Notes under the pieces: generated by a model
The model's database searches: none
What the model was told of the DNA's origin: nothing
Seen by the model: only the letters and a program-made list of their open reading frames with translations
Shown: positions 36,988 through 59,897 of the stretch, in pieces
Layout: every line of letters starts with the position of its first letter
How positions within the stretch are numbered: position 1 is the stretch's first letter
Made by a program: the position numbers and the translations under genes
Origin: an uncultured Lachnospiraceae bacterium
GTDB lineage: Bacteria; Bacillota; Clostridia; Christensenellales; UBA1242
Assembly: GCA_964368755.1 (NCBI GenBank)
Contig: CAYJCR010000001.1
Coordinates: forward strand, 70,074-134,073
Length of the DNA stretch: 64,000 nt
Direction of reading: 5' to 3'

Positions 36988-37021
36988 AGCAACCTCCACG
37001 AACAATCGTATATATTTTATT

Positions 37022-47549: not shown

Positions 47550-47665
<116 letters not shown>

Positions 47666-47673
47666 ATTAATAA

Positions 47674-47778
47674 GCGGATCTCGAACGGTGCGTAAAGAAA
47701 AGCTACCCCAATGGGTAGGTTTTTAGCACCCGGCGTGATAGCGAGCCACAACTTCTGGCACCAGCCCCGAAGCGGAGC
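47674..47778. repeat. ~100-nt tRNA-associated element, copy A
   Basis: Shares the blocks GCGTAAAGAAAA-hairpin-TTTTTAGC...GCGTGATA...hairpin...TCTGGCACC with copies at 55974 (same orientation) and 56330 (inverted). Confidence 0.8.
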
Positions 47779-47836
47779 GAGTCCCATCTTTCACCCCAAG
47801 AACGAAGACTTATGTTATATAAGTCTTTTTTTGTTT
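47778..47836 (+). repeat. direct repeat copy 2 (orphan 3' end of tRNA-His plus terminator)
   Basis: 58 of 59 positions identical to 47607..47665. It lacks the 5' three-quarters of the tRNA. Confidence 0.95.
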
Positions 47837-48005
47837 GAGCAAAATAATGTATATATATACTTATATTTATCAAAATAATAACATATATGTTGGTTTTTGT
47901 TTGTCAATTCTTTTTTGAATTGATATAATACATCTAGATTAATTTTGTAGCTAGCATTGGACATATGATTATATACAATTGAAGATTGATATTAGGAGCA
48001 ATACT

Positions 48006-51000
48006 ATGGGAAAAAGATGGAAAATAATTTTATCAGTACTTTCTTGCATTATTATACTAGCAGGAGCCGGAGTAGGACTATACTTTGGTTTGAGTGACAA
48101 AGGTAATGGTGGAGGAAGTAGTAGCCCACAAAGTAGCAGTGGTACTTCTCAAGATCCGGTAGCAACCTACTATACAGTTACTTATGCTAATACAGCTATA
48201 CCAAATGCAAGGGTAGAGGCTGGATCTTTGTTATTGGAGCCAACTTCTGGAACAGCAAAGGATAAGTATGTATTCTTGGGCTGGTATAAAGATGCCGACT
48301 TCTCAACTCAATGGGATTTCGTCAATGACAAGGTCAATGCCAATACTACTTTGTATGCAAAGTATGAGAGAGCAATATACGGTATGAGAATCAATACTGA
48401 TAATGTTGAGACTGAGTTCGACAAAGGTGAGATGACAGATTATAATGGACTTGTTGTCGAGATAATGAAGAGTGATCTCAAATATTACACTTTGCCAGTT
48501 GGTGACTATACAATTACAAGCAATCGTACAGATGTCAATGTTGCAGGTTGGTACACTATTACAGTACAATACAGAACTTTCCATAGCGATTATGAAATTG
48601 AAGTTTTGCCAACAACCGAGAAAGGTTTGTTCTGCTATGTCAATGACTCATTGGTATACAGAAGTTATGTTGATAATGGTGCTGGGCTACCAGAAGAACT
48701 AGAAGAGCCAACATATCCACAAGCTGGATATGAATTTGCCGGTTGGTACACAGATAAAGGTTGTACCACAGCTTTTAGTGCAAGTACTATTACAGCCGAT
48801 ACAGTTTTGTATTCAAAATGGACAAAGAAGTTCCTTATTACTTTCAACAATGTTGATGTTCCTGGACAATATGCCCTTGCTGGAGAAAAATATTCATTGC
48901 CAAATAGTGCATTGATAGCAAAGACAGGTTATGATCTTGTTGGATTCTTTACAAATGAAGACTACACTTTCTATAGTGTTGACGGCGACGGTGTTGTAAC
49001 TGGAGAAGTTCAAGAAGATAGTATTAGTGTTGAAGGATTGGCAAAGGAAATACATAACACAAATAATGAATATTATGTACTATACTCTAGAGTTGGCACA
49101 AATGGATCAAATTTGGTAAAAACTCCTGTATATAAGAAGGTTTATACTGGGAGCTATATCAAAAATGAGCAATCTATTACAGCAACAGAAGCTCACGATT
49201 TGTATGCAATATTTGAGCCAAAGACTTTCCGTGTTACTTATGCATGGAACAACAATTCTCTTGATGATTACAAATATGTAACATATAACCAAGCTTATGG
49301 TGAATTACCACCTCTTGAAGATGGAACATATATATCAGAAGGTTGGATGTTGAACGATACAAGAATAACAAAAGATAGTATTGTTAAAATAACTAGTGAT
49401 GTACAACTTATTGCTCAAGTAGTTGAGAAAGAAGAAGTTGATAGAAATCTATACGTAAGATTACCATATCTAAAAGTTAATTTGGCTGATGTTAATTATC
49501 ACGTATATCGCAAATCTTACTACAGAGCTCCAGAAGGCGAGGGTGATGCAACATATGTAGAAGAAGCCTTTGTATTCAATAATAATAGTTTTGCAAAATA
49601 CTTATTGCTTAATAGCACAACAGTATTAGACGGTAATACCTTTGTGTTTGATAGCAAAACATTTACTTACGATTCAACTGCAAGAACACTTACTCAAGAA
49701 GAAGCTTTGGTAGGAACTGGATATGGAATGTTCTCTTACCAATCAGGCGATAACAAATATGCAATAGACGTATCCGGTACGAATGTTAAGATATTTGCTA
49801 GTTTTGATGCTTCTGCAAACGTTGTTGCTGATAGGTATATGTATGAAGTTTCTAGTAAGACAATATACACGAATTATAAGTATGAAGTATACAACGGATA
49901 TACATATGATTATTTCTTAGATGAGTTCCTAGATGATTTGTTTGCAAGATATAGTGATGCAGCTTGCACTAGAATATATGCAGGTAGCAAACTGTTCGCA
50001 AAAAATATGAGCGAAGATTACTATGAAGAATGGCTAGAATTGGTACGTAATAAAACTATAGTTGGATATATATTTGAAGTACCTGAGGGCTCAGATGTCA
50101 GAGGATTCTATGACGAAAAAGATGCTCAGATCAAATATGGTGCTATTATCAATCGTCCAGACAATTTTGGTATAGGCGAAGATATAACCTTATCAATTAA
50201 GACATGTATTCCTGTCAAAATCAATTTGTCTGTCAATGGTGGAACATTAACTCCAGCAATAACATACGTTGACGGAATAGTTGGAGATTTATTCCCAACT
50301 CTTCCTACTCCTTCCAAAGTTGGTTATGCATTCGGTGGTTGGTATTATGACACAAGCTACAGAGTACCTATCCAAGAAGGGACGTTGGTTCAAGGTAATA
50401 ACACTCGAGTATATGCTAGATGGGACAAACTCGCTGAGATAACAGTAAGAGTATATCCTGATACTGCAGCTACAACGTCAATCGCAACTTATAAGTTCCA
50501 AGCAGGTTCTACATATGGCGCTAACTTCCCAAGTGCTTTGGTACGTGAAGGATATGTATTTAAGGGTTGGTATTCTGATGTTAATCTTACAACTGAGGTC
50601 ACTGCAGACGATGTTGTTAAGACAAATGTCTTATATCCAAAATTCGAATCCATATATGTAGAGGTTACACTTAACTATGTTGATACTCCTATTGGTAACG
50701 GGCATATTACAGTTAAGTATGGAGATATGTATGGAGCACTTCCAACCATGATTAGCAAAGAATTTGCAGATGGTGGTTGGTATGCCGATGTGGGTTATGA
50801 GACCAAAGTTACATCAGCTACAAGAGTACAAAATACTGAGGCACACATCTTGTATTTCAGAAAACTTCCTTATCATCAAGTAGTCTTTACAACTTCAGCA
50901 ACTGATGTGGTTGGCGAGGGATATAAATATAAGAAAGCCCTTCTCGATACAATTCTTATACCAAAGAGTCCATATACTAGAGATGGTTATGTGTTCGCAG

Positions 51001-54000
51001 GTTGGTTCATTGATGCAAATGATAATGGAATAATGGACGGAAGTGAAGAGATAATTGAACCTAGAGTAAAGTTTACTTTGGTAGAGGATGCTGATATTAG
51101 TTTCCATGCTTATTGGGTCAAAGAAGCTACTTTGGTATTTAGGAAAGGTGCAGAGTCGGCAACTGGTGCTAATCCATTGAATCTTATCATAAAACAAGGT
51201 GAATCAATAACTCTTCCACAAATACCTTATGATATGACAAGCTCTTCGGCAAACAATTGGATAACTGTATGCCCAGACGGAACAGTAATGGCATTTACTT
51301 CAAGTGGAGCAGCTTCATCAAGTGGTTTGTCAATTAACGATATTATGTTTAAGATTTGGTGTTATGACGATCAAGATGATTGGACACTTGTTTCTATGAA
51401 CATGTTGGGCGAATTTGAGTATAACGGAAAGAAATTTACATACACTGATGGAACGATAACCTGTGGTGGTGTATGGGAACTTGAAGATGGTAAGATTGAT
51501 ATCGAATCAGACGATATGCTTGATGCTATATATGAATACTTCACTGGTGGTGTATGGGAACTTGAAGATGGTAAGATTGATATCGAATCAGACGATATGC
51601 TTGATGCTATATATGAATACTTCACTGGTGGTGTTGGAGAACAGATCCCAATTGATTTTGAATTGTTGATAAACAATGCTCACAATCAGTATCTTCCATA
51701 TCTTGTACTCTATGAAGGAAATATTGTTGAAAGTAGAACAACTATATGTGAAAATGAGTTCTTAATATCTGCAACAGGCATAACTAATGAAACTCTAGAT
51801 ACTAACGCAACATTAGTCTCTGGATACAGCAATATTTATAGTATTGAGATGTTTGAGACCACAGTGTTCTTGCGTCACGATACTGAAGAAAACAAATTAT
51901 ATCTTGGAGTATCGGTATTATCAACTTTTACAGATGATATTATTGGTGGCAAAGGAGAACAGATCCCAACAATCAAATACACATTTGAGGAAGGATTTGT
52001 TATTGACAACTTGACTCAGCTTGGTATTGATACTAGAGATGAAGGAGTTGACGGTGCATATTATTATTCTAACGAATCAGAATGGGTAGATTTTGTTGTG
52101 TTAGATAAATTAACTTTGACTCCAAATTGGGAATATACAATAAATATCAATAATTATGCTCCAGACGGTACTTTGGCTAGCGTAACAGCACAGCAGTCAG
52201 GAACAAAGGGTAGCGTTGTTGATTTGAACAACTACAAGGGTAGCTACAACTATTGGGAAATCAAAGAAGTTTTCTTCAAAGACGAGTTTAATAACATAAC
52301 ACCAATTACTGTTAATGAAGATGGAATTATTAGCTCTTATTCAATTACGACTGCGGGAACGATCAATATTGTATATGAAAAGGTAGTTGTTTTGTCTTTC
52401 AACGAAGGGACCTTTGGTACAATAGAGAATATGGTGATCAGCGAGAGCAAAGTTTCTGAAGCTAGCAATGATCATCAAGGACTATTCAATAATGCGGGTG
52501 CTTACTTTGATTTTGACAACAATACATATGACTTCACAAACAATGGTCAGACAGTTAATTTTACCAGTTATGATGAAGCTTACAGCACTTTAGTAAACTT
52601 ATTTAATTATGTTCCTGATAACTCTAGCGAGTCATATGGCAATGGAGATTTATTATCGTACTCTTCTAATATATTTACTGTCACAAGAGCTTTGAACCAA
52701 TATACATATAGTGTCTATACCGTCTTTGACAGTGGTGAGCAACAGATATTCGGAGATTCAAACAGACAAGCATATGAGACTGAATATATCAATCTCCAAT
52801 TGCTTATAGATAATATATTAGAAAGCAACAATCAATATAAATACAACAATGCAAAATGCAGTGTTGATGGTAATGAAAGCGACATAGATGATATCAGTAA
52901 TTTTGTTGTAACAACATCTGACACGCAGGTGGTTTTGTATTTTGTAACAAAAAGTCAATATTCTTATTCAATATATGGATTTAATTGTGACACACAAGAC
53001 CGTGATGCAACTACAATTGCTACAGGAAGTGTCTATGAGAATCAATATGTTGACATGTTTGATACTTTGAAGCAATGGTTGGATCTTACTGAAAACCTAG
53101 ACAAAGCATATGACTATACAAGATCTATTAGCGAACTAGAAGTTCAAATTACAAGCGATGGTCAAGTAATAGAGTTGCCTTACAAAGCAGCACAAAGTTG
53201 TTCAATCACAGTTTATTATTACATTGATAATGGAGGGTCCCAAACATATACAAACTTCGATCAGTTGTATGATGGAAGGATAATAGATTTACAAACTACG
53301 TTTATTTCTCCTATTATTAGTAGCAGTTCTGATATTGAATTTGATGCTAATACAACTATGTTAGAAACATCACATATTGTACAAGCAAACGAAACTATTA
53401 ACTTATACTTCAAATCAATCGTAGTGCCTACTGTATCTTATGCTATAAACTACAGTTATTCTGATGGAACTAAGACTGGCACAATTGATAGTGGCAGTAT
53501 TAATTCTGGATCGGCTATAAATATTAGAGAGATTATAGGCTCTTTCTTGGATAATCATAACAGTTTGGATTATAGCTATAACAGCATGTATATCGACGAA
53601 GGTGATATGGAGACATATTCTCTATATGAGAGCAATGGTGATTTTGAGTTAACGGTGTACTTTGTTCCAGCAACGATGTACGGTTATACGGTTTATTATG
53701 TTATTGACGAAAGTGGTTCACAGTATTATACTTCAGATACCATTGCAACATCTCGCTATCTTGACTTGCAATCAATGGTAGATAGTATTTGTTCTAATTA
53801 CAGTTGCACTTTTGATAGTACAGCTACAGGAATATCAAATTTGTCAGAATATAGCGTACAAAATGATGGAGAGAGTATAACGTTGCATTTTAGTACTCAA
53901 CAGGGAACAAGTAGTTATGCTTACACAATCTTTGTTAAACACTATAATGCTGGCCCTAGCGAAACTGGTGATCAGTTAGCAAGTGGTACAGATAGTAGTA

Positions 54001-54935
54001 TTAATCTCACAAGTTATATTAATATTTGTCAATCGGATGTACTAGAAGTAGTTGGTATTAAAGTTGATGGTAATCCTGTTAATAGTAATACAGTATCTAT
54101 TACAAGAGAGAATACTATTATTACCATAGAATGCTGTTATAAGGTTATTCTTCAATTTGACTCTACAGTATATGGAGAAATAATTAACAAGACTTTTGTT
54201 GAAAATGATATGCCAAGTGAAGACGACTTTGTTAAAGATTATAATATAACACTCAATATCAACAACTGGAGTTCATATGATGCTTCATATGGAGCGTATG
54301 GAGAGATAGATTACTCATACAATGGAGCATATTATTCTGTTGCTTCTAATATTGAAAATTATGCTATGTTGAGACAATGCATTATGAGTATATTTAACAA
54401 CTGGCAAGAAGACTTTATGAATAGTAACACCTTCACTCTTACAAGAATTTTTTCAAAGTTGACAATAAAATCTATTGCTCCCGACGGAACGGAATTTGAA
54501 TCAATAACAGACATCGCAGATGGTGATGATATTAGCAACCAAGGTCTTGATATCTACTATACAATTACTCCAAGCAAATACACAGCAGTAGCAGATAATC
54601 GTATGTATTGGGCTGTTAAAACTGTTTCGTATCAATATGGTGATAATCCATCAACGACATTGCCATGGGGGAATATTGATTCATGCTATAATACATACAA
54701 AGGTGGTATTGTTACTATTACATACGAAAGAGCTCTTAATGTTGCTTTTGATGGATTTGACGAGATAGGACTTACCCCATCCCAGACGACTATTTCTGAA
54801 TCAACATTGACAACTTTGAGTACACAAGTAAGTGATTCTTCATATGTTGCCGGTACTATATGGAATGAATTGGAGATCTGGAGCAGTATTGATTTTGACA
54901 AGTACTGTTTATCCATAAAATATTGTAACCCATAA
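48006..54935 (+). CDS. giant N-terminally anchored surface protein with Listeria-Bacteroides (Flg_new/InlB B-repeat type) repeats
   Basis: 2,309 codons from the ATG at 48006 (TAGGAG RBS). A signal-anchor (KIILSVLSCIIILAGAGVGLYFGL) and Ser-rich linker come first. At least 8 repeats follow with the pattern [YF]xFxGW[YF]xD...LYAKW. The C-terminal half is N/S/T/Y-rich and modular, with no LPXTG motif seen. Confidence 0.85.
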   Translation: MGKRWKIILSVLSCIIILAGAGVGLYFGLSDKGNGGGSSSPQSSSGTSQDPVATYYTVTYANTAIPNARVEAGSLLLEPTSGTAKDKYVFLGWYKDADFSTQWDFVNDKVNANTTLYAKYERAIYGMRINTDNVETEFDKGEMTDYNGLVVEIMKSDLKYYTLPVGDYTITSNRTDVNVAGWYTITVQYRTFHSDYEIEVLPTTEKGLFCYVNDSLVYRSYVDNGAGLPEELEEPTYPQAGYEFAGWYTDKGCTTAFSASTITADTVLYSKWTKKFLITFNNVDVPGQYALAGEKYSLPNSALIAKTGYDLVGFFTNEDYTFYSVDGDGVVTGEVQEDSISVEGLAKEIHNTNNEYYVLYSRVGTNGSNLVKTPVYKKVYTGSYIKNEQSITATEAHDLYAIFEPKTFRVTYAWNNNSLDDYKYVTYNQAYGELPPLEDGTYISEGWMLNDTRITKDSIVKITSDVQLIAQVVEKEEVDRNLYVRLPYLKVNLADVNYHVYRKSYYRAPEGEGDATYVEEAFVFNNNSFAKYLLLNSTTVLDGNTFVFDSKTFTYDSTARTLTQEEALVGTGYGMFSYQSGDNKYAIDVSGTNVKIFASFDASANVVADRYMYEVSSKTIYTNYKYEVYNGYTYDYFLDEFLDDLFARYSDAACTRIYAGSKLFAKNMSEDYYEEWLELVRNKTIVGYIFEVPEGSDVRGFYDEKDAQIKYGAIINRPDNFGIGEDITLSIKTCIPVKINLSVNGGTLTPAITYVDGIVGDLFPTLPTPSKVGYAFGGWYYDTSYRVPIQEGTLVQGNNTRVYARWDKLAEITVRVYPDTAATTSIATYKFQAGSTYGANFPSALVREGYVFKGWYSDVNLTTEVTADDVVKTNVLYPKFESIYVEVTLNYVDTPIGNGHITVKYGDMYGALPTMISKEFADGGWYADVGYETKVTSATRVQNTEAHILYFRKLPYHQVVFTTSATDVVGEGYKYKKALLDTILIPKSPYTRDGYVFAGWFIDANDNGIMDGSEEIIEPRVKFTLVEDADISFHAYWVKEATLVFRKGAESATGANPLNLIIKQGESITLPQIPYDMTSSSANNWITVCPDGTVMAFTSSGAASSSGLSINDIMFKIWCYDDQDDWTLVSMNMLGEFEYNGKKFTYTDGTITCGGVWELEDGKIDIESDDMLDAIYEYFTGGVWELEDGKIDIESDDMLDAIYEYFTGGVGEQIPIDFELLINNAHNQYLPYLVLYEGNIVESRTTICENEFLISATGITNETLDTNATLVSGYSNIYSIEMFETTVFLRHDTEENKLYLGVSVLSTFTDDIIGGKGEQIPTIKYTFEEGFVIDNLTQLGIDTRDEGVDGAYYYSNESEWVDFVVLDKLTLTPNWEYTININNYAPDGTLASVTAQQSGTKGSVVDLNNYKGSYNYWEIKEVFFKDEFNNITPITVNEDGIISSYSITTAGTINIVYEKVVVLSFNEGTFGTIENMVISESKVSEASNDHQGLFNNAGAYFDFDNNTYDFTNNGQTVNFTSYDEAYSTLVNLFNYVPDNSSESYGNGDLLSYSSNIFTVTRALNQYTYSVYTVFDSGEQQIFGDSNRQAYETEYINLQLLIDNILESNNQYKYNNAKCSVDGNESDIDDISNFVVTTSDTQVVLYFVTKSQYSYSIYGFNCDTQDRDATTIATGSVYENQYVDMFDTLKQWLDLTENLDKAYDYTRSISELEVQITSDGQVIELPYKAAQSCSITVYYYIDNGGSQTYTNFDQLYDGRIIDLQTTFISPIISSSSDIEFDANTTMLETSHIVQANETINLYFKSIVVPTVSYAINYSYSDGTKTGTIDSGSINSGSAINIREIIGSFLDNHNSLDYSYNSMYIDEGDMETYSLYESNGDFELTVYFVPATMYGYTVYYVIDESGSQYYTSDTIATSRYLDLQSMVDSICSNYSCTFDSTATGISNLSEYSVQNDGESITLHFSTQQGTSSYAYTIFVKHYNAGPSETGDQLASGTDSSINLTSYINICQSDVLEVVGIKVDGNPVNSNTVSITRENTIITIECCYKVILQFDSTVYGEIINKTFVENDMPSEDDFVKDYNITLNINNWSSYDASYGAYGEIDYSYNGAYYSVASNIENYAMLRQCIMSIFNNWQEDFMNSNTFTLTRIFSKLTIKSIAPDGTEFESITDIADGDDISNQGLDIYYTITPSKYTAVADNRMYWAVKTVSYQYGDNPSTTLPWGNIDSCYNTYKGGIVTITYERALNVAFDGFDEIGLTPSQTTISESTLTTLSTQVSDSSYVAGTIWNELEIWSSIDFDKYCLSIKYCNP
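51465..51626 (+). repeat. perfect 81-bp tandem duplication inside the giant gene
   Basis: 51465-51545 is identical to 51546-51626, encoding GGVWELEDGKIDIESDDMLDAIYEYFT twice in-frame. Confidence 0.97.
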
Positions 54936-55170: not shown

Positions 55171-55731
55171 TTAACTATGATTGTGAGCATAGATACGGAT
55201 ATCAATCTCTCCGTATTTTCGCTTATCAATCTCTGAGAACGGGTTAGATGAAGAATACTTTTCTGGCTTATTCAGCTCAGACAAACTTTCCCATATTATG
55301 ATACCATCAGGGGCCAGAAGATTGTATTCGTATATCTTCGATATAGCTGATTCTGCAAATATGCTGTTATATGGTGGGTCAAGGTATATGATATCGAATT
55401 GTTTGCCTTTTTTGTAGTATTGAAGCAAGGCTGTATTATAATCTTGCATAGATACATAAGCTTTAATGTTGAGTGAACGCAAGTTGTCGCTAATAAGTTT
55501 GCAACTATCTTTGTTGCTATCAACAAAGCAGACTTCTTTGGCTCCTCGACTCAAACATTCTATGCCGATAGCACCTGTACCTGCGAACAAGTCTAAGACA
55601 ATGCTATCTGGGATATAACCACTTATTACATTGAATATATTCTCTTTGACTCTGTCCGTTGTTGGCCTAACACCTTCATGTTTTGGCGATAATATCTTGC
55701 GACCTTTGTACAATCCAGTTATAACTCTCAT
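55171..55731 (-). CDS. rsmD: 16S rRNA (guanine966-N2)-methyltransferase RsmD
   Basis: MRVITGLYKGRKI, RPTTDRVKE, LDLFAGTGA and DPPY motifs. Confidence 0.9.
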   Translation of the reverse strand: MRVITGLYKGRKILSPKHEGVRPTTDRVKENIFNVISGYIPDSIVLDLFAGTGAIGIECLSRGAKEVCFVDSNKDSCKLISDNLRSLNIKAYVSMQDYNTALLQYYKKGKQFDIIYLDPPYNSIFAESAISKIYEYNLLAPDGIIIWESLSELNKPEKYSSSNPFSEIDKRKYGEIDIRIYAHNHS

Positions 55732-55878
55732 ATTGACTCCTATGCTATTATTATAGCACTAATACAACAGTAGATACAAATATTATTTTGGATAATACTT
55801 AACGGAAAATGGTTGATGATAGATATGATTCAACCCCTAAACACTATTTGTAATGTGTACTTGGGTAGAAAAGCAGTT

Positions 55879-55969
55879 ATTACTCGGGGTGAGAGCCCAT
55901 GATTAAATAAGATAATAAAAAAAGAGCAAGACTGTCTGTCTTGTTCTTTTTGATTGTTTGGTGGGTCAT
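55879..55969. repeat. 91-bp direct repeat copy 1 (terminator plus 3' acceptor end of tRNA-Lys, minus-strand sense)
   Basis: ATTACTCGGGGTGAGAGCCCATG...TTGTTTGGTGGGTCAT is roughly 85 percent identical by eye to 56141..56231. Confidence 0.9.
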
Positions 55970-55973
55970 TGGG

Positions 55974-56071
55974 CGCGACGCGTAAAGAAAACAACCCGGT
56001 GTGGTTGTTTTTAGCCAAAGCGTGGGAGCGACTTGTCGCGGTCTGGCACCGACAGGTGTCGAACCCCGGCC
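55974..56071. repeat. ~100-nt tRNA-associated element, copy B
   Basis: CGCGACGCGTAAAGAAAA-hairpin-TTTTTAGCCAAAGCGTGGGA-GCGACTTGTCGC-GGTCTGGCACC... It is flanked by antisense tRNA-Lys pieces: acceptor 3' end on the left, T-stem/T-loop on the right. Confidence 0.8.
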
Positions 56072-56140
56072 ACAGTATAAAAATATGCTAATGCAAACTT
56101 AAATCCTAGTTGTTGTGTGTGCTTGTGTGGAATGGTAATC

Positions 56141-56231
56141 ATTACTCGGGGTGAGAGCCCATGTTTAAATAAGATAATAAGAAAAGAACAAGACAGACAG
56201 TCTTGTTCTTTTTGATTGTTTGGTGGGTCAT
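56141..56231. repeat. 91-bp direct repeat copy 2
   Basis: See 55879..55969. This copy belongs to the intact tRNA-Lys(CTT). Confidence 0.9.
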
Positions 56232-56296
56232 CGGGGGCTCGAACCCCGGACACCCTGATTAAGAGTCAGGTGCTCTACCAACTGAGCTAATAACCC
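56221..56296 (-). tRNA. tRNA-Lys (anticodon CTT)
   Basis: 76 nt with acceptor GGGTTAT/ATGACCC, anticodon loop CTCTTAA, T-loop TTCGAGC and encoded CCA. A terminator follows downstream on the minus strand. Confidence 0.92.
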
Positions 56297-56329
56297 AAGT
56301 ACTAAATATTAAACGAACTAATCCGTTAC

Positions 56330-56424
56330 GGGTGTCCGGGGTAAACCCCTCCGCTCGCAATGAATTGCTATATCACGCTTTGGCTAAAAACTTGCCACTG
56401 GCAACTTTTTCTTAACGCATCGCG
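56330..56424. repeat. ~100-nt tRNA-associated element, copy C (inverted relative to A and B)
   Basis: The minus strand reads CGCGATGCGTTAAGAAAAA-hairpin-TTTTTAGCCAAAGCGTGATA-GCAATTCATTGC-... The inner end is an antisense copy of tRNA-Lys positions about 44-53. Confidence 0.8.
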
Positions 56425-56471
56425 CCCTGATTAAGAGTCAGGTGCTCTGTCACACCTAGAGCTAATAACCC
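56425..56471 (-). pseudogene. truncated tRNA-Lys(CTT) 5' half (positions 1 to ~45) with altered D-loop
   Basis: GGGTTATTAGCTCTAGGTGTGACAGAGCACCTGACTCTTAATCAGGG, preceded by the same upstream AAGTAC flank as the intact gene. It abuts element C instead of a T-arm. Confidence 0.8.
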
Positions 56472-56597
56472 AAGTACCATATAGCGATGTTACGAGTTGT
56501 ATTATATATTTTATTACAACATTTGTCAAGGTAATTGCAGAATTTTTTGTTAAAAGTTTTTATCACATATTTATATTATTTTTCATAACTTTTGTAT

Positions 56598-57647
56598 ATG
56601 AATAAGTTTGTTATAGATAGAGGTATATTGCTCAGTAATATTGAGCGCATTCACGGTCTTATTGGGAAGAAAAAACTATGTGTTATGGTCAAAGCCGATG
56701 CTTATGGTCATGGGCTTGTGCGAATATCCAAGATAGTTCAGGGTTCAGTAGACTATCTAGGCGTTGCTTGTATTAGTGAGGGAATACGCCTTAGGAATAA
56801 TAATATTTATGCACCTATTCTTGTGGTTGGAAGTTATGATAGAAGGCTCGCAAAATTGGGTATAGTTAATGATTTGACTTTGTCTATAGGTAGTGAAGAT
56901 AGTATGTTGCATTTGAGTAAACTTGTGTCTACTCTTCGTATCAAGACGAAAGTCCATATACAAGTCAACTCTGGAATGAATAGATATGGGCTTGATTGTC
57001 GCAAAGATTTAAACAAAATATTGCAAATTGCATCTTGCAATCCATATGTGATTGTAGAAGGAATATTCTCTCATATAAGTAATGCTTGCGATAAGTTATC
57101 GACATTCAAACAGTATAATAAATTCAAAAACATATGTAAGCATATTCCTAAAAACACAATTCGACATATTGCATCAAGCGAAGTGGTATCTAGGTATAAA
57201 AATATGCATATGGATATGGTGCGAGTAGGGATTGCAATGTATGGCTATGGATTAGGATGTAGGCCAATACTTACTATCACCAGTAATATTGTCGATATAA
57301 GGTATGTCAAAAAGGGTGCAACAATAGGGTATAACAACAAGTATTGTTTGCAACGAGATAGCTTTGTGGGAACAGTTGCTATTGGATATGCCGATGGCAT
57401 CAATCGTAAGCTCTCTCAAGGTGGCAAGGTGGCAGTTGATGGCAAGTGTTATAAGATAGCTGGCAATGTGTGTATGGACTGTTTTATGGTGGATTTTGGC
57501 TCTTACAGGCCACATATTGGACAAGAAGTGATAATTCTTGACTCAGATATTAATGCAGAAGTGATTGCAAGCCAATGTGATACAATCTGCTATGAGATAC
57601 TTACCTCTTACAAGACCAATAGAATGAAAGTACTAGTAAAGGCATAA
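56598..57647 (+). CDS. alr: alanine racemase
   Basis: VKADAYGHG PLP-lysine motif, a C-terminal beta-domain with CMDCFMVD, and about 350 aa. No obvious RBS, so the start is uncertain (ATG 56598 or TTG 56592). Confidence 0.9.
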   Translation: MNKFVIDRGILLSNIERIHGLIGKKKLCVMVKADAYGHGLVRISKIVQGSVDYLGVACISEGIRLRNNNIYAPILVVGSYDRRLAKLGIVNDLTLSIGSEDSMLHLSKLVSTLRIKTKVHIQVNSGMNRYGLDCRKDLNKILQIASCNPYVIVEGIFSHISNACDKLSTFKQYNKFKNICKHIPKNTIRHIASSEVVSRYKNMHMDMVRVGIAMYGYGLGCRPILTITSNIVDIRYVKKGATIGYNNKYCLQRDSFVGTVAIGYADGINRKLSQGGKVAVDGKCYKIAGNVCMDCFMVDFGSYRPHIGQEVIILDSDINAEVIASQCDTICYEILTSYKTNRMKVLVKA

Positions 57648-57701
57648 TTGATTGACTTGGTCTGGTAGATTGGGTTATAGTATAGATAGGAGAAAAATCT
57701 T

Positions 57702-58262
57702 ATGGATATGGAAAGAGAAGTTCGGTATTGTCTAAGTGCTGACCTTATGCAACGCATAAAAGACGATTCAAAACTTATTGAAGAACCCAAGAATAACATT
57801 GATATAGTATGTGGGTATAATGGCTTTGATTCATTACGAGACTATGGCTTTATATGCCGCGTAAGGCAGAAGTCTAACAAAGTTGTCTTGGAGATCAAAA
57901 AGCGCATATCAGATAGCGTATGGGAAGAGTATTCTGCACAAAGTGCTAGTCTCAAAGATGGTGTTGCTTTTTTTAGCGCACTAGGAATGAAACCATACCT
58001 ATATATCAACAGGACAAGAAGTGTGTATTCGCAAGGGAAATTCAAGATATTCTTTGATAATATTGATATGTTGGGAGATTTTGTTGAACTTGAGTATGTC
58101 GGCAAAGACAATATGTGGAAGACAGCTCTTAACAGGTTTTTGTCAAAGTATGGCATTGATGATAACAGGCAGAAGTTGTATGGAGATATATTCAAAGACA
58201 AAATTCAAGAAGATGAGGATTTCAAACAGAAGTTTACAGTACGACTTGATGACGTCTTATAA
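57702..58262 (+). CDS. CYTH-domain protein (class IV adenylate cyclase / triphosphatase family)
   Basis: N-terminal ExExR (EREVRY), followed by CRVRQ, LEIKK and FVELEY acidic/basic ladder motifs typical of the CYTH tunnel. AGGAG RBS. Confidence 0.6.
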   Translation: MDMEREVRYCLSADLMQRIKDDSKLIEEPKNNIDIVCGYNGFDSLRDYGFICRVRQKSNKVVLEIKKRISDSVWEEYSAQSASLKDGVAFFSALGMKPYLYINRTRSVYSQGKFKIFFDNIDMLGDFVELEYVGKDNMWKTALNRFLSKYGIDDNRQKLYGDIFKDKIQEDEDFKQKFTVRLDDVL

Positions 58263-58280
58263 CATTGTAGCAAAAATGTG

Positions 58281-58485
58281 TTGACAAATCTCATTCAAAG
58301 TGACATAATGCAGACATAAAAGCATTGAGGAAGTGTGGCGACTTCTTAGCTGGTAACCAAAATGTTATCCGTATCTCTTGCGTTAAAAGAGGAATGAAGG
58401 TATATGACTCGTGTCATATACGAATTAGGGTGGAACCGCGAGATAATCGTCCCTATGGCTAATTTTTAGCTTGGGGATTTTTTAT
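58281..58485 (+). promoter_or_regulatory. sigma-A promoter (TTGACA-17-CATAAT) plus glycine T-box leader with terminator
   Basis: -35 at 58281-86 and -10 at 58304-09. The T-box sequence AATTAGGGTGGAACCGCG is at 58423-58440. The terminator stem TCCCTATGGCTA/TAGCTTGGGGA plus T-run lies at 58449-58485. A candidate specifier GGT-A is at 58399-58402. Confidence 0.8.
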
Positions 58486-58523
58486 TGCAAAGAGTCCTCA
58501 TAATGAATAATAAGAGGTGTTAT

Positions 58524-59897
58524 ATGGAAAAGAATGTTGTAACTATGGACAAGATTGTCAATCTTTGTAAGGGTAGAGGTTTTGTGTTCCCAGGTAGTGA
58601 GATATATGGGGGGTTTGCTAATACTTGGGATTTTGGCCCAATAGGTGTTGAACTCAAGAATAATATCAAACGTGCTTGGTGGAAGAAGTTTGTTCAAGAA
58701 GACCCAAATACTTATGGAGTAGATGCTGCAATCCTTATGAATCCTAAGGTGTGGGAAGCAAGTGGTCACGTTGCAAGTTTTGGAGATCCAAAGATGGATT
58801 GTAAGAAATGTAAGCAGAGATTTAGAGCAGATACAATGATAGAAGCACATAGCAAGGGTAGTGTTGCCGCTGAGGCTATGACCAATGAGCAATTGGAGGC
58901 TTACATTGCTGAGCATCATCTAACTTGCCCTCATTGTGGAGGTTTTGATTGGACTCCAATACGTAAGTTTAATCCTATGTTTATCACTTCTCGTGGTACA
59001 CTTGAAGAGGGAGCAGATACTGTATACCTTAGACCTGAGACTTGCCAAGGCGAGTATGTCAATTTCCTCAATGTACAACGTACAGCGAGAGCCAAAGTGC
59101 CTTTTGCGATCGCACAGATTGGTAAGTCATTTAGGAATGAGATTACTCCGGGTAACTTCCTATTCAGAACAATAGAGTTCGAACAAATGGAACTTCAAAT
59201 GTTTTGTAAAGAAAGTGAATCTATGGATATATATTCGGATTATAAGGCAAGAGCTTTGAAATTTGTCGAAGAACTTGGACTTGCTCAAGAGAACCTTCGT
59301 TATCATGACCACGATAAACTTGCTCACTATGCGAAGGCAGCTTGTGATATACAATACAACTTCCCAATAGGTTGGCAAGAACTCAATGGTATACATCACA
59401 GAGGTGTATGGGACTTGTCTCGTCATCAGGAGTTTTCTGGCAAATCAATGCTTTATCTTGATCCATTTACGAATGAGAAGTATATTCCTAATGTTATAGA
59501 ATACTCTATAGGTGCAGATAGGCTAACCCTTGCTCTTATGTGTGCTGCGTATGATGAAGAACAGCTAGATAATGATACTCGTATCGTTATGCACTTTAAG
59601 CCATCTATCGCTCCATATAAGGTAGCAATATTGCCTTTGCAGAAGAATATGTCTGATAAGGCAAAGGAGATCTATTCTAGCCTAGCCAAGCACTTCATGT
59701 GTACATATGATGAGGCTGGTAGTATTGGCAAAAGATACAGAAGACAGGATGAGATTGGTACTCCTATGTGCGTGACAATAGACTTTGATACTTTGGAGAA
59801 GAATACTGTTACTGTTCGAGATAGAGATACTATGCAACAAGTTACTATTCAGGCAGGCGAACTAATAGATTATGTCCGCAAGATAGTAGAAGGTTAA
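58524..59897 (+). CDS. glyQS: glycine--tRNA ligase (homodimeric GlyQS type)
   Basis: RGFVFPGSEIYGG, the class II motifs (FRNEITP...) and an anticodon-binding C-terminus. Start moved to the ATG at 58524, which has an AAGAGG RBS. Confidence 0.95.
   Translation: MEKNVVTMDKIVNLCKGRGFVFPGSEIYGGFANTWDFGPIGVELKNNIKRAWWKKFVQEDPNTYGVDAAILMNPKVWEASGHVASFGDPKMDCKKCKQRFRADTMIEAHSKGSVAAEAMTNEQLEAYIAEHHLTCPHCGGFDWTPIRKFNPMFITSRGTLEEGADTVYLRPETCQGEYVNFLNVQRTARAKVPFAIAQIGKSFRNEITPGNFLFRTIEFEQMELQMFCKESESMDIYSDYKARALKFVEELGLAQENLRYHDHDKLAHYAKAACDIQYNFPIGWQELNGIHHRGVWDLSRHQEFSGKSMLYLDPFTNEKYIPNVIEYSIGADRLTLALMCAAYDEEQLDNDTRIVMHFKPSIAPYKVAILPLQKNMSDKAKEIYSSLAKHFMCTYDEAGSIGKRYRRQDEIGTPMCVTIDFDTLEKNTVTVRDRDTMQQVTIQAGELIDYVRKIVEG

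What the first reader, a model, noticed from the sequence alone, without database searches (positions are those of the whole stretch)
55856..56471. tRNA-Lys(CTT) locus: intact tRNA bracketed by inverted element copies B and C, a split second tRNA-Lys, and a 91-bp duplicated trailer
Read on the minus strand, the order is as follows. First comes a tRNA-Lys 5' half (positions 1 to ~45, with a different D-loop TAGGTGTGACA, 56471-56425) fused to element C. After a ~33-nt spacer comes a complete tRNA-Lys(CTT) (56296-56221) with its terminator and trailer (repeat copy 2). A ~70-nt AT-rich segment follows, ending in a possible promoter (TTAAGT-17-TATACT). Next is a T-stem/T-loop fragment CCGGGGTTCGA fused to element B. 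B runs into CCCAATGACCCACCA, the 3' acceptor end plus CCA, followed by terminator and trailer copy 1. So the 5' half and the 3' end of a second tRNA-Lys are separated by ~450 bp. That interval is bounded by ~100-bp imperfect inverted repeats (C and B) and carries a whole replacement tRNA-Lys. A further inverted scrap (GTACTTGGGT, the upstream flank plus first bases of the tRNA) lies on the opposite strand at 55856-55865. This looks like a composite or MITE-like insertion that disrupted one tRNA gene while delivering another. I have not seen this arrangement described.
Basis: seen in the sequence. Interest (0 to 1): 0.75.

Follow-up and report, generated by a model that had tools for sequence, protein, structure and literature searches.

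The report
Conserved hairpin element embedded in tRNA fragments
The intact tRNA-Lys gene really is flanked by two partial copies of itself, each fused to a ~100-base hairpin element. This is not a one-off accident, because the same undescribed element sits next to partial tRNA copies beside tRNA-His in this window and beside several tRNA genes in other uncultured Clostridia.

Summary
The one-off "composite or MITE-like insertion" reading is only partly right.

B and C belong to a family I call X, about 80-110 nt with three hairpins and no Rfam match. A third copy, A, lies downstream of tRNA-His at 47.68 kb. A covariance model finds exactly three copies in the window.

Homologous copies occur in nine other contigs from uncultured Clostridia. 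Each is fused to a partial tRNA or tmRNA copy, and in eight contigs the intact gene is alongside (Lys-CTT, Leu-TAA, Glu-CTC, tmRNA).

The layout promoter, tRNA-Lys 5' part (1-45), X, 10-13 nt antisense to the tRNA's own variable loop and T stem, spacer, intact tRNA-Lys(CTT) recurs in five loci. The X hairpin is 93% conserved there, against 85% for the tRNA and 55% for the spacer.

Breakpoints cluster in the T loop or at position 43-45. Direct repeats run from the breakpoint past the gene end. That is the footprint of site-specific insertion into tRNA genes, but no recombinase is nearby and copy number is low.

Best reading (0.42): a small tRNA-targeting insertion or recombination module, whose upstream copy is kept as a transcribed leader. 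Main rival (0.3): a cis-acting RNA. The function is untested.

The parts
56501..56529 (-). Consensus sigma-70 promoter (TTGACA-17-TATAAT). It would drive the leader plus tRNA-Lys.
   Evidence: The promoter scan scored it 12 of 12.
56425..56471 (-). Partial tRNA-Lys copy, positions 1-45, with a variant D loop (TAGGTGTGACA). The acceptor strand, D stem and anticodon arm are identical to the intact gene.
   Evidence: Sequence; direct repeats D2 and D3; alignment A1.
56330..56429 (-). X copy C. From 5' to 3': tail GGGCGCGATGCGTTAAGAAAAA, terminator-like hairpin h3 (56404-56392), core GTTTTTAGCCAAAGCGTG, hairpin h2, hairpin h1.
   Evidence: Covariance model R1, 83.6 bits at 56350-56429; consensus fold; pair counts; terminator-like site on both strands.
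56330..56342 (-). ACCCCGGACACCC, a perfect antisense copy of tRNA-Lys positions 42-54 (variable loop plus T-stem 5' strand). It forms the 3' strand of hairpin h1.
   Evidence: Inverted repeat I4. No shuffle out of 500 reached this length, and the feature is present in all five such loci.
56221..56296 (-). Intact tRNA-Lys(CTT).
   Evidence: ARAGORN; Rfam RF00005, 69.1 bits.
56100..56220 (-). Trailer copy 2. It holds a bidirectional terminator hairpin (56212-56182) and an antisense remnant of the variant D arm.
56074..56102 (-).
   Evidence: Visible in the sequence. The scan did not call it.
56059..56073 (-). tRNA-Lys fragment, positions 44-58 (variable loop, T-stem 5' strand, TTCGA), in sense orientation.
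   Evidence: Direct repeat D5; sequence.
55974..56058 (-). X copy B, inverted relative to C. It has hairpin CACC-TGTC-GGTG, the CCAGACC box, hairpin h2 (GCGAC/GTCGC), the core, hairpin h3 (its 3' strand GGGTTGT resembles the local acceptor strand GGGTTAT) and the tail.
   Evidence: Model R1, 83.0 bits at 55969-56046 (+); consensus fold of B-type copies.
55959..55973 (-). tRNA-Lys 3' fragment CCCAATGACCCACCA (degenerate T-stem 3' strand, acceptor 3' strand, CCA).
   Evidence: repeat D1.
55838..55958 (-). Trailer copy 1. It holds a terminator hairpin (55950-55919) and an antisense degenerate copy of the upstream flank plus the 5' part. The plus-strand scrap GTACTTGGGT at 55856-55865 belongs to that copy.
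47687..47777 (+). X copy A, downstream of tRNA-His(GTG) at 47551-47627. An inverted T-loop piece GCGGATCTCGAAC (47674-47686) precedes it. A 59-nt direct repeat brackets it (47607-47665 against 47778-47836, 58 of 59 identical). The repeat runs from the T loop through the terminator.
   Evidence: Model R1, 52.4 bits at 47679-47759; sequence; repeat check.

Best explanation
B, C and A are three old paralogous copies of a small non-coding module, X. X has a long bulged hairpin with a terminator-like tip, followed by two short hairpins. It lives inside partial duplicates of tRNA genes next to the functional gene.

The anatomy is the footprint of site-specific insertion or recombination into tRNA stem-loops that keeps one working gene:
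- One intact tRNA.
- X fused to a fragment that starts or ends in the T loop or at position 43-45.
- A direct repeat running from that breakpoint out past the end of the gene.

I infer that X is the conserved end of a family of very small, non-autonomous tRNA-targeting recombination modules, or the stub of larger ones. The recombinase would act from elsewhere in the genome. Local inversions at the palindromic tRNA arms would then give the mixed orientations.

In this locus one such event on the 3' side produced B plus trailer copy 1. An event on the 5' side produced the 5' copy plus C.

The upstream module has since been kept under selection as the transcribed leader of tRNA-Lys(CTT).

**Shown:** the family, its structure, its association with several tRNA genes, the clustering of breakpoints, the repeats and the conservation.

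**Inferred:** the recombination mechanism, action of a recombinase in trans, and the retained leader role.
For: **Family and copy number**
- The covariance model finds exactly three full copies in the window and twelve in nine other chromosomal contigs.

**Association with different genes**
- Lys-CTT: window, L009, L016, L020, L032.
- His-GTG: window copy A.
- Leu-TAA: L044, two tandem units.
- Glu-CTC: L045.
- tmRNA: L011.
- An unidentified 3' end: L046 and L047.
- Sources.

**Breakpoints**
- The X tail is fused to the T-stem 3' strand or the T loop in window B, window A, L016-B, L032-downstream, L045, L046 and L011.
- It is fused at position 43-45 in all five upstream Lys copies and in L044.

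**Direct repeats from the breakpoint past the gene end**
- Copy A: 58 of 59.
- Copy B: 118 of 139.
- L045: about 60 nt including the terminator.
- L011, L032 and L016: 17-22 nt.

**Other support**
- Partial tRNA duplicates beside an intact gene are the recognised product of integration into tRNA genes (PMC9897764).
- A related two-hairpin motif occurs in viral contigs at 41-45 bits.
- Retention of the upstream module: across five loci the X hairpin is 93% identical, against 85% for the tRNA and 55% for the spacer.
Against: - No integrase or transposase lies next to any of the loci. The neighbours are housekeeping genes.
- The modules are only about 110-260 bp, too small for a conventional attP.
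- Copies within one genome are 59-64% identical, while copies at the same position in different genomes are over 90% identical. That is the reverse of what recent mobility predicts.
- A duplication of the 5' side (leader plus positions 1-45) is not the usual polarity. Known tRNA-integrating elements duplicate the 3' part (my own knowledge; Williams 2002).
- The hairpins covary. This points to a folded single strand rather than double-stranded arm sites.
- The 18-mer core and the 20-mer h3 sequence of the chromosomal type are absent from IMG/VR. No similar sequence was found in INPHARED or PLSDB.
Confidence: 0.42

Rival explanations
1. X is a cis-acting structured RNA of tRNA transcription units. 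The upstream module would be an autoinhibitory or attenuating leader for tRNA-Lys(CUU). It has three parts: a tRNA 5'-half mimic, a bulged hairpin with a terminator-like tip, and an anti-T-arm segment. The hairpin pauses or terminates transcription. The mimic and the antisense segment compete with the tRNA's own 5' half and T arm, so maturation needs resolution by a helicase or an RNase. The downstream copies would be related small RNAs or trailer elements.
For: - A perfect promoter lies upstream of the 5' copy, and X hairpin h3 scores as terminator-like on both strands.
- In L020 the module sits inside a tRNA operon, so it must be transcribed.
- The X hairpin is more conserved than the tRNA itself, 93% against 85%.
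- Covariation: the covariation score, the count of cells changed on both sides and the percentage of cells paired were each reached by 0 of 500 shuffles, and 3-4 pairs carry changes on both sides.
- The invariant G-U pairs lie on the transcribed strand in the five upstream copies, in copy A, in L011, in the L032 downstream copy and in the viral copies.
- B-type copies have their own helix, CCAGACC with GGCUUUGG, carrying a G-U pair in their transcribed orientation.
- The antisense segment tracks three different local variable-loop and T-stem sequences. At 10-13 nt it is probably too short for RecA-dependent gene conversion (my inference).
- The 251-nt precursor folds at -96.6 kcal/mol (z = -5.97). 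In that fold the mimic's acceptor strand pairs with the real 3' end and the T arm is opened.
Against: - X occurs in both orientations relative to the adjacent tRNA.
- Copies A and B lie behind strong terminators.
- The anticodon stem of the mimic has picked up mismatches in three of five loci.
- There is no expression data, and no known factor recognises such a hairpin.
- The low folding energy partly follows automatically from the repeats.
- This reading does not explain why X is fused to fragments of many different tRNAs, with direct repeats.
Confidence: 0.3
2. No dedicated mobility is involved. X would be an ordinary, locally conserved terminator or insulator hairpin next to tRNA genes. The partial tRNA copies in both orientations would be by-products of replication template switching and slippage between two strong hairpin-forming sequences, X and the tRNA arms. 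This is a kind of quasi-palindrome mutagenesis plus tandem duplication.
For: - Breakpoints sit at the bases or loops of tRNA hairpins.
- Short flanks are often inverted copies of the adjacent arm: antisense T loop in copy A, the L032 downstream copy and L045; antisense anticodon arm in L044; antisense variable loop and T stem in the upstream Lys copies.
- The window's trailer contains scrambled antisense pieces of the 5' copy.
- L016 shows tandem partial units.
- No recombinase gene lies nearby.
Against: - Random rearrangement would not rebuild the same junction in five genomes (tail fused at position 45, CAGGGCGCG).
- It would not explain why the same about 80-nt sequence accompanies fragments of at least five different genes.
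- It does not explain the purifying selection on X.
Confidence: 0.15
3. A composite or MITE-like transposon bounded by the inverted copies C and B inserted into a second tRNA-Lys gene. It split that gene into a 5' half and a 3' end and brought a replacement tRNA-Lys. This would be analogous to tRNA-dependent lysogeny.
For: - C and B are inverted and bracket an intact tRNA-Lys.
- L016 has the same inverted pair.
- A known precedent exists for disrupting a tRNA while carrying a replacement (PMC10865867).
Against: - L032 has the downstream copy in direct orientation. L009 has only a stub and L020 has none.
- Each 5' copy carries the local acceptor sequence in every genome.
- The 3' piece starts at position 44 and has X inside its T loop, so the two pieces are not halves of one gene split at one point.
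- There is no target-site duplication. Copy number is low and the copies are diverged.
Confidence: 0.08
4. The pattern is a mis-assembly of tRNA paralogues, or simple decaying tandem tRNA-Lys duplicates with no shared element.
For: Short-read contigs from four other samples that carry the identical rsmD or alr genes stop at the edges of this region. The locus is therefore hard to assemble.
Against: - The same architecture appears in independent assemblies of other organisms (L009, L016, L020, L032).
- The shared element is statistically unambiguous (E about 1e-25).
- The shared element is under selection.
Confidence: 0.03

Closest known systems
Partial tRNA/tmRNA gene duplicates (attL/attR) left by integrative elements that target tRNA genes
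   Same: An intact gene lies next to a partial copy. The breakpoint is in the T loop or a stem-loop, and the direct repeat runs from there to the 3' end. tRNA and tmRNA genes are both used. Tandem accretion is seen in L044.
   Different: The 'element' between the repeats is only about 110-260 bp, with no integrase nearby. One module duplicates the 5' side. The repeats often include the host-specific trailer. The conserved part is a folded hairpin module that covaries.
tRNA-dependent lysogeny (mycobacteriophages; PMC10865867)
   Different: There, a full phage with an integrase and a roughly 10-bp common core is involved. Here there is no phage or integrase, the arrangement is conserved across species, and the fragments match the local tRNA.
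MITEs and other small bacterial interspersed repeats (Correia, RUP, BOX, REP/BIME, and IS200/IS605-derived palindrome-associated elements)
   Same: The size is similar (about 100 nt). They are non-coding, form hairpins, lie between genes and can carry terminator-like structures.
   Different: X has no terminal inverted repeats, no target-site duplication and no matching transposase. Copy number is low and copies within a genome are diverged. X is strictly associated with tRNA fragments.
Split and permuted tRNA genes (Nanoarchaeum; Cyanidioschyzon)
   Same: Separate 5' and 3' tRNA pieces carry complementary flanking sequences. In this window and in L016, C and B could pair.
   Different: This is a bacterium with a complete functional gene in between. 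The 3' piece carries X inside its T loop rather than at its 5' end. The pairing partner is absent or in direct orientation in other genomes. No splicing endonuclease is expected.
Bidirectional intrinsic terminators
   Same: Hairpin h3 has an A tract, a variable G+C stem-loop and a T tract. The covariance model cross-hits real terminators on model positions 16-44. The scan calls it terminator-like on both strands.
   Different: The stem has only 5-7 pairs. It is flanked by about 20 nt of highly conserved sequence on each side, and these flanks pair with each other through conserved bulges and G-U pairs. Two further conserved hairpins follow.

Membership tests
MITE / composite transposon | Terminal inverted repeats at the ends of the mobile unit | tested here: not met
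   A single X copy has no terminal inverted repeats (alignment A4). B and C are whole-element inverted copies in the window and L016 only. In L032 they are direct.
MITE / composite transposon | Short target-site duplication flanking the insertion | tested here: not met
   No short duplication flanks X or the C-to-B interval. Instead there are 17-139-nt repeats of tRNA plus flank.
MITE / composite transposon | Many near-identical copies per genome | tested here: not met
   Three copies occur in 64 kb, 59-64% identical. The exact 18-mer core occurs once per representative genome. The rest of this genome was not available.
tRNA-integrating genetic element (att sites) | An intact tRNA gene plus a direct repeat of its 3' part, starting at a stem-loop crossover | tested here: met
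   Met by window A and B, L045, L044, L032-downstream, L011 and L016-B.
tRNA-integrating genetic element (att sites) | An integrase (tyrosine or serine recombinase) encoded within or next to the element | tested here: not met
   The genes flanking the chromosomal loci tested (window, L009, L011, L016, L020, L032) are housekeeping genes, and the genes called in L044 and L045 have no recombinase domain. Not every ORF of the window was scanned.
tRNA-integrating genetic element (att sites) | Presence/absence polymorphism or excision products | not testable with these tools
   The relatives retrieved (L048-L050) are not syntenic at this site. No read-level data were available.
tRNA-dependent lysogeny | The host tRNA is disrupted without reconstruction, and the element carries its own tRNA of the same isotype plus an integrase | tested here: not met
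   There are no phage genes or integrase. The intact tRNA and the fragments share the local, species-specific sequence in each of five genomes.
Split / permuted tRNA gene | The two pieces together make one complete tRNA after pairing of their flanks | tested here: not met
   The pieces are 1-45 and 44-58, then X, then 61-76. X interrupts the T loop of the 3' piece. The complementary partner is lacking in L032, L009 and L020.
Any Rfam family | A match to a curated covariance model | tested here: not met
   Only the tRNA model matches at the gathering threshold. Nothing covers X even at E up to 10, and nothing covers the viral version.
Intrinsic terminator | A G+C-rich stem-loop followed by a U tract | tested here: inconclusive
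   Hairpin h3 passes the pattern scan on both strands and cross-hits real terminators. The stem has only 5 pairs in C, and in L020 X lies inside a tRNA operon that must be read through.

The most novel reading that the evidence does not exclude
The upstream module is a conserved riboregulatory 'pro-sequence' of a tRNA. It consists of a tRNA-Lys 5'-half mimic, a protein-recognised bulged hairpin that is more conserved than the tRNA itself, and a segment antisense to the tRNA's own variable loop and T stem. Together these would hold the tRNA-Lys(CUU) precursor in an inactive fold, or attenuate its transcription, until a trans-acting factor resolves it. The B-type and A-type copies would be related small RNAs carrying other tRNA-derived pieces. 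This would be a leader-encoded regulator of a tRNA gene. I found no description of such a thing in bacteria.
Probability: 0.2. Interest if true: 0.8.

Novelty: new variant of a known kind. Interest (0 to 1): 0.6.

Why it matters
- **Annotation.** Partial tRNA copies next to tRNA genes are normally dismissed as scars of phage or island integration. Here the scars always carry the same roughly 100-nt folded element, which is conserved more strongly than the neighbouring tRNA, with no recombinase in sight.
- **If X is a recombination module.** It would define an unusually small, non-autonomous class of tRNA-targeting element. It would also imply an unidentified recombinase acting in trans in gut or rumen Clostridia.
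- **If X is an RNA.** It would be a new structured RNA family and possibly the first leader-type regulator of a bacterial tRNA.
- **Practical consequences.** The element explains why short-read assemblies break at these loci. It also flags tRNA 'halves' that annotation pipelines could mis-call.

Tried and rejected
- **Rfam.** Searches of the locus (E up to 10) and of the viral versions (E up to 1) found nothing for X.
- **Exact 18-mer core, genome collection.** 17 hits, about the chance number, of which only 4 were real.
- **Exact 18-mer core, metagenome collection.** 21 hits, of which 1 was real.
- **IMG/VR.** The 18-mer core and a tRNA-junction pattern gave nothing. The h3 20-mer gave one ordinary terminator. 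The pattern TGTCGGNNCCAGACCG gave 85 chance hits, none confirmed by the model.
- **INPHARED and PLSDB.** blastn found no match.
- **tRNA-Glu(CTC) in the window.** Checked for a copy because L045 has one there. None is present.
- **Empty-site test.** The retrieved relatives have alr-rsmD-glyS with no tRNA, so the locus is not comparable.
- **Exact lookup of a spurious 80-aa ORF across B**, meant to find independent contigs. It is not on record.
- **Single-sequence folding of B or C alone.** Not better than shuffles (z = -0.6 and -0.8). The structure is supported by comparison between copies, not by energy.
- **Ideas considered and dropped:**
  - Inversion between B and C would restore a second tRNA. 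By construction it does not.
  - Integron attC. The R-box consensus is absent.
  - K-turn or boxA motifs. No fit.
  - Retroposition of transcript-bounded segments. The repeats run 14-80 nt past the terminators in L045 and in copy B.
  - Pseudo-cos site. The viral copies lie at different positions in late operons.
- **What worked.** Six-frame peptides of X were used as a protein query to find spurious ORFs, and through them new contigs.
Full report
**1. The observation**

Read on the minus strand, the region runs as follows.
- A consensus promoter, TTGACA-17-TATAAT, at 56529-56501.
- A copy of tRNA-Lys positions 1-45 with a changed D loop, at 56471-56425.
- Element C, at 56429-56330.
- A 33-nt spacer.
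- The intact tRNA-Lys(CTT), at 56296-56221 (ARAGORN; Rfam 69.1 bits).
- Trailer copy 2 with a bidirectional terminator hairpin.
- An AT-rich stretch.
- A sense fragment of tRNA positions 44-58, at 56073-56059.
- Element B, at 56058-55974.
- CCCAATGACCCACCA, at 55973-55959.
- Trailer copy 1.

The supporting numbers are these.
- B and C share an exact 18-mer and a 21-nt motif. Each motif occurs twice in 64 kb, against 0.01 and 0.00 expected by chance. Overall the two are 64% identical.
- The trailers match at 85 of 91 bases, extending to 118 of 139.
- The inverted scrap at 55856-55865 is real. It is the start of a degenerate antisense copy of the variant 5' part, embedded in the trailer.

Two things were missed: the strong upstream promoter, and a perfect 13-nt antisense copy of the tRNA's variable loop and T-stem 5' strand at the far end of C (56342-56330; repeat I4).

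**2. B and C belong to a family**

No Rfam family matches them.

A scan of one genome per species with the 18-mer core gave 17 hits, about the chance number. Four of them have extended homology: L009, L011, L016 and L020, all uncultured Clostridia or Christensenellales. The metagenome scan added L032.

I translated X in six frames and searched for spurious predicted proteins. This led to four more contigs, L044-L047.

A covariance model built from 14 copies (A4 and R1) finds exactly three full copies in the window:
- C, at 83.6 bits.
- B, at 83.0 bits.
- A third copy, A, at 47679-47759 (+), at 52.4 bits.

It also finds twelve copies in the nine other contigs. Its weaker hits are ordinary terminators that match only model positions 16-44.

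**3. Anatomy of X**

In the orientation of C, X has these parts.
- A tail (GGGCGCGAyGCGTwAAGAAAA) that pairs with a core (TTTTTAGCCAAAGCGTG), through conserved bulges, across a distal stem-loop h3.
- A second hairpin, h2.
- A third hairpin: h1 in the upstream Lys copies, or NNCC-GACA-GGNN in the B-type copies.

Evidence for the fold:
- On 14 sequences, 86% of cells pair, against 27-56% when the 3' partners are slid by 1-3 columns.
- Four pairs show changes on both sides.
- Three measures were each reached by 0 of 500 shuffles: the covariation score, the count of cells changed on both sides, and the percentage of cells paired.
- h2 and the third hairpin also change in a compensatory way: GCAAT/ATTGC, GCGAC/GTCGC, GAAGCA/TGCTTC, and CACC/GGTG, CTCC/GGAG, TTCC/GGAA.
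- Two G-U pairs are invariant or nearly so on the C-orientation strand.
- B-type copies have an extra helix, CCAGACC with GGCUUUGG, with an invariant G-U on the opposite strand. That opposite strand is their tRNA-sense strand.
- h3, with its A and T tracts, looks like a short bidirectional terminator.

**4. Context of every copy**

Each chromosomal copy is fused to tRNA-derived sequence, and in all but L046 and L047 the intact gene is next to it.

*Upstream type.* This is seen in the window (C), L032, L020, L009 and L016. The order is promoter or preceding tRNA, a few bases of leader plus tRNA-Lys 1-45, X, spacer, intact tRNA-Lys(CTT).
- The acceptor stems differ between genomes: GGGTTAT, GGACCAG, GGATCGC, GGACTTT. 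Each 5' copy carries its local version.
- Each leader carries 10-13 nt of perfect antisense to local tRNA positions 41/44-53/54. This follows three different local sequences, with 0-1 of 500 shuffles doing as well.

*Downstream type.* The order is intact gene, terminator, variable spacer, X, a fragment from the T loop or T-stem 3' strand to CCA, terminator.
- Present in window B and A, L016, L032, L045 (tRNA-Glu) and L011 (tmRNA). L046 and L047 show the same X-plus-3'-fragment unit without an intact gene on the contig.
- In L044 (tRNA-Leu) there are two tandem units, and X is inserted at position 43/44.
- Orientation of X relative to the tRNA varies. It is inverted in window B, L016, L044, L045 and L046. 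It is direct in window A, L032 and L011.
- Short inverted copies of the neighbouring tRNA arm often flank X. Examples are an antisense T loop in A, L032 and L045, and an antisense anticodon arm in L044.

Copy A is bracketed by a 59-nt repeat that runs from the T loop through the terminator and is 58 of 59 identical.

The genes flanking the chromosomal loci tested include no recombinase, and the genes called in L044 and L045 have no recombinase domain. The organism is a spore-forming Clostridium-like bacterium with SpoIVA, SpoIIGA and sigma-E.

**5. Conservation**

Mean pairwise identity across the five upstream loci:

| Segment | Identity |
|---|---|
| X long hairpin | 93% |
| tRNA-Lys | 85% |
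| h2 + h1 | 71% |
| Spacer | 55% |

The three paralogues in this one genome are only 59-64% identical to each other. X is therefore under purifying selection at a conserved position. It is not a recently amplified repeat.

The window and L016 share both the variant D loop (TAGGTGTGACA and TAGACGGCAA) and the inverted downstream copy. This points to common ancestry of that arrangement.

**6. Relatives and assembly**

Contigs from other samples that carry the identical rsmD or alr genes end at the borders of this region. That is expected for repeats longer than the assembly k-mer.

Relatives with RsmD 57-61% identical have alr, rsmD and glyS adjacent, with no tRNA between them. L009 has alr and rsmD adjacent as well. 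The rsmD-alr interval here therefore results from a rearrangement, and it cannot serve as an empty-site control.

The recurrence of the same architecture in independent assemblies argues against mis-assembly.

**7. Viral contigs**

A gapped pattern found seven IMG/VR contigs. The model confirmed six of them: L054 (full length, 45.1 bits) and L051, L052, L055 and L057 at 41-45 bits, and L053 more weakly at 25.9 bits. The motif is GCGTTAAGAAAAC-stem-GGT-stem-GTTTTTAGCC followed by a second hairpin.

These copies lie in intergenic spacers of late or packaging operons and point the same way as the genes. One example sits upstream of a 211-aa ORF, the large terminase subunit and portal. They are not next to tRNAs or integrases.

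Nothing similar was found in INPHARED or PLSDB, and no Rfam family matches.

**8. Interpretation**

Two lines of evidence pull in different directions.

*For site-specific insertion into tRNA genes.* Three features match what integration into tRNA genes leaves behind (PMC9897764): the clustering of breakpoints, the direct repeats running from the breakpoint past the gene end, and the spread over at least five different genes. They argue for site-specific insertion or recombination at tRNA stem-loops that preserves one working gene.

*For a role as folded RNA.* Several features argue this at least for the upstream copy:
- The hairpin covariation.
- The strand-specific G-U pairs.
- Conservation exceeding that of the tRNA.
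- The promoter.
- The antisense segment that tracks the local tRNA.

The whole 251-nt precursor is predicted to fold at -96.6 kcal/mol (z = -5.97). In that fold the mimic's acceptor strand pairs with the real 3' end, and the T arm is opened by the leader. Part of this low energy follows automatically from the repeats.

I rank the readings as follows.
- 0.42: a miniature tRNA-targeting recombination module, whose upstream copy has been retained as a leader.
- 0.30: a purely cis-acting RNA.
- 0.15: hairpin-driven local rearrangement without dedicated mobility.
- 0.03: mis-assembly or simple decay of tandem duplicates.

**9. Comparison with known systems and novelty**

The closest known things are att-site tRNA fragments, tRNA-dependent lysogeny (PMC10865867), MITE or REP-like repeats, split tRNA genes and bidirectional terminators.

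X fails defining tests for each of these except the footprint of an intact gene plus a direct repeat of its 3' part. The detail is in the membership table.

I found no description of the element itself, or of the conserved leader layout (5'-half mimic, hairpin, anti-T-arm segment), in Rfam or in the literature searched. I rate it a new variant of a known kind, with a real chance that it is a new structured RNA. Interest is 0.6.

Noticed in passing
window 47551-47840 (+): A third X copy (A) lies downstream of tRNA-His(GTG). The order is tRNA, terminator, an inverted T-loop piece, X, then a 59-nt repeat of T loop through terminator that is 58 of 59 identical. The repeats are close together and almost identical, so they should be prone to deletion, yet the arrangement persists.
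   Followed up: yes
L020 1516-1735 (+): A partial tRNA-Arg(TCT) copy (5' end to the D loop) followed by a roughly 130-nt insert lies upstream of the intact tRNA-Arg, with a repeat of the leader. The insert contains GCGTAAAATC-CTGC-AA-GCAG-TTTTTAC, which resembles the X tail/h3/core, plus degenerate anticodon-arm and T-arm pieces. Model R1 does not detect it.
   Followed up: partly
L051, L052, L054, L055, L057 (IMG/VR contigs); e.g. L057 4526-4561 (-): An X-like two-hairpin motif sits in intergenic spacers of phage late or packaging operons, pointing the same way as the genes. Its function is unknown, and it is absent from Rfam, INPHARED and PLSDB.
   Followed up: partly
L054 1624-1801 (+): A sub-threshold match to FuFi-1 RNA (RF02986; 46 bits against a gathering score of 59.6; E = 3e-7) lies about 550 nt from the X-like motif in a viral contig.
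   Followed up: no
window 55171-59897: The gene order here is rsmD(-), the tRNA-Lys module(-), alr(+), a CYTH gene(+), glyS(+). Relatives (L048-L050, and partly L009) have alr, rsmD and glyS adjacent on one strand. So rsmD has been relocated and inverted at this locus.
   Followed up: partly
window 55838-55960 and 56100-56160: Both trailer copies contain an antisense, degenerate copy of the variant 5' part of tRNA-Lys (plus strand: GTACTTGGGT..TTATTACTCGGGGTGAGAGC). The locus is thus a mosaic of tRNA-Lys pieces in both orientations.
   Followed up: partly
window 55990-56008 (-); L016 4753-4771 (+): In the B-type copies downstream of tRNA-Lys, the 3' strand of hairpin h3 resembles the local acceptor 5' strand. 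In the window it is GGGTTGT against GGGTTAT, and in L016 it is GGACTGT against GGACTTT. Other copies do not show this, and it is unexplained.
   Followed up: no
window 35005-37005 (-): A lone type IV secretion coupling protein gene (TraG/VirD4-like; T4SS-DNA_transf, E = 6.5e-46) lies next to spoIIGA and sigE. No other conjugation genes were seen among the ORFs scanned.
   Followed up: no
window 47979-54935 (+): A 2318-aa ORF lies directly downstream of copy A. Its counterpart in the Logan contig L001 carries Flg_new (Listeria-Bacteroides repeat) domains.
   Followed up: no
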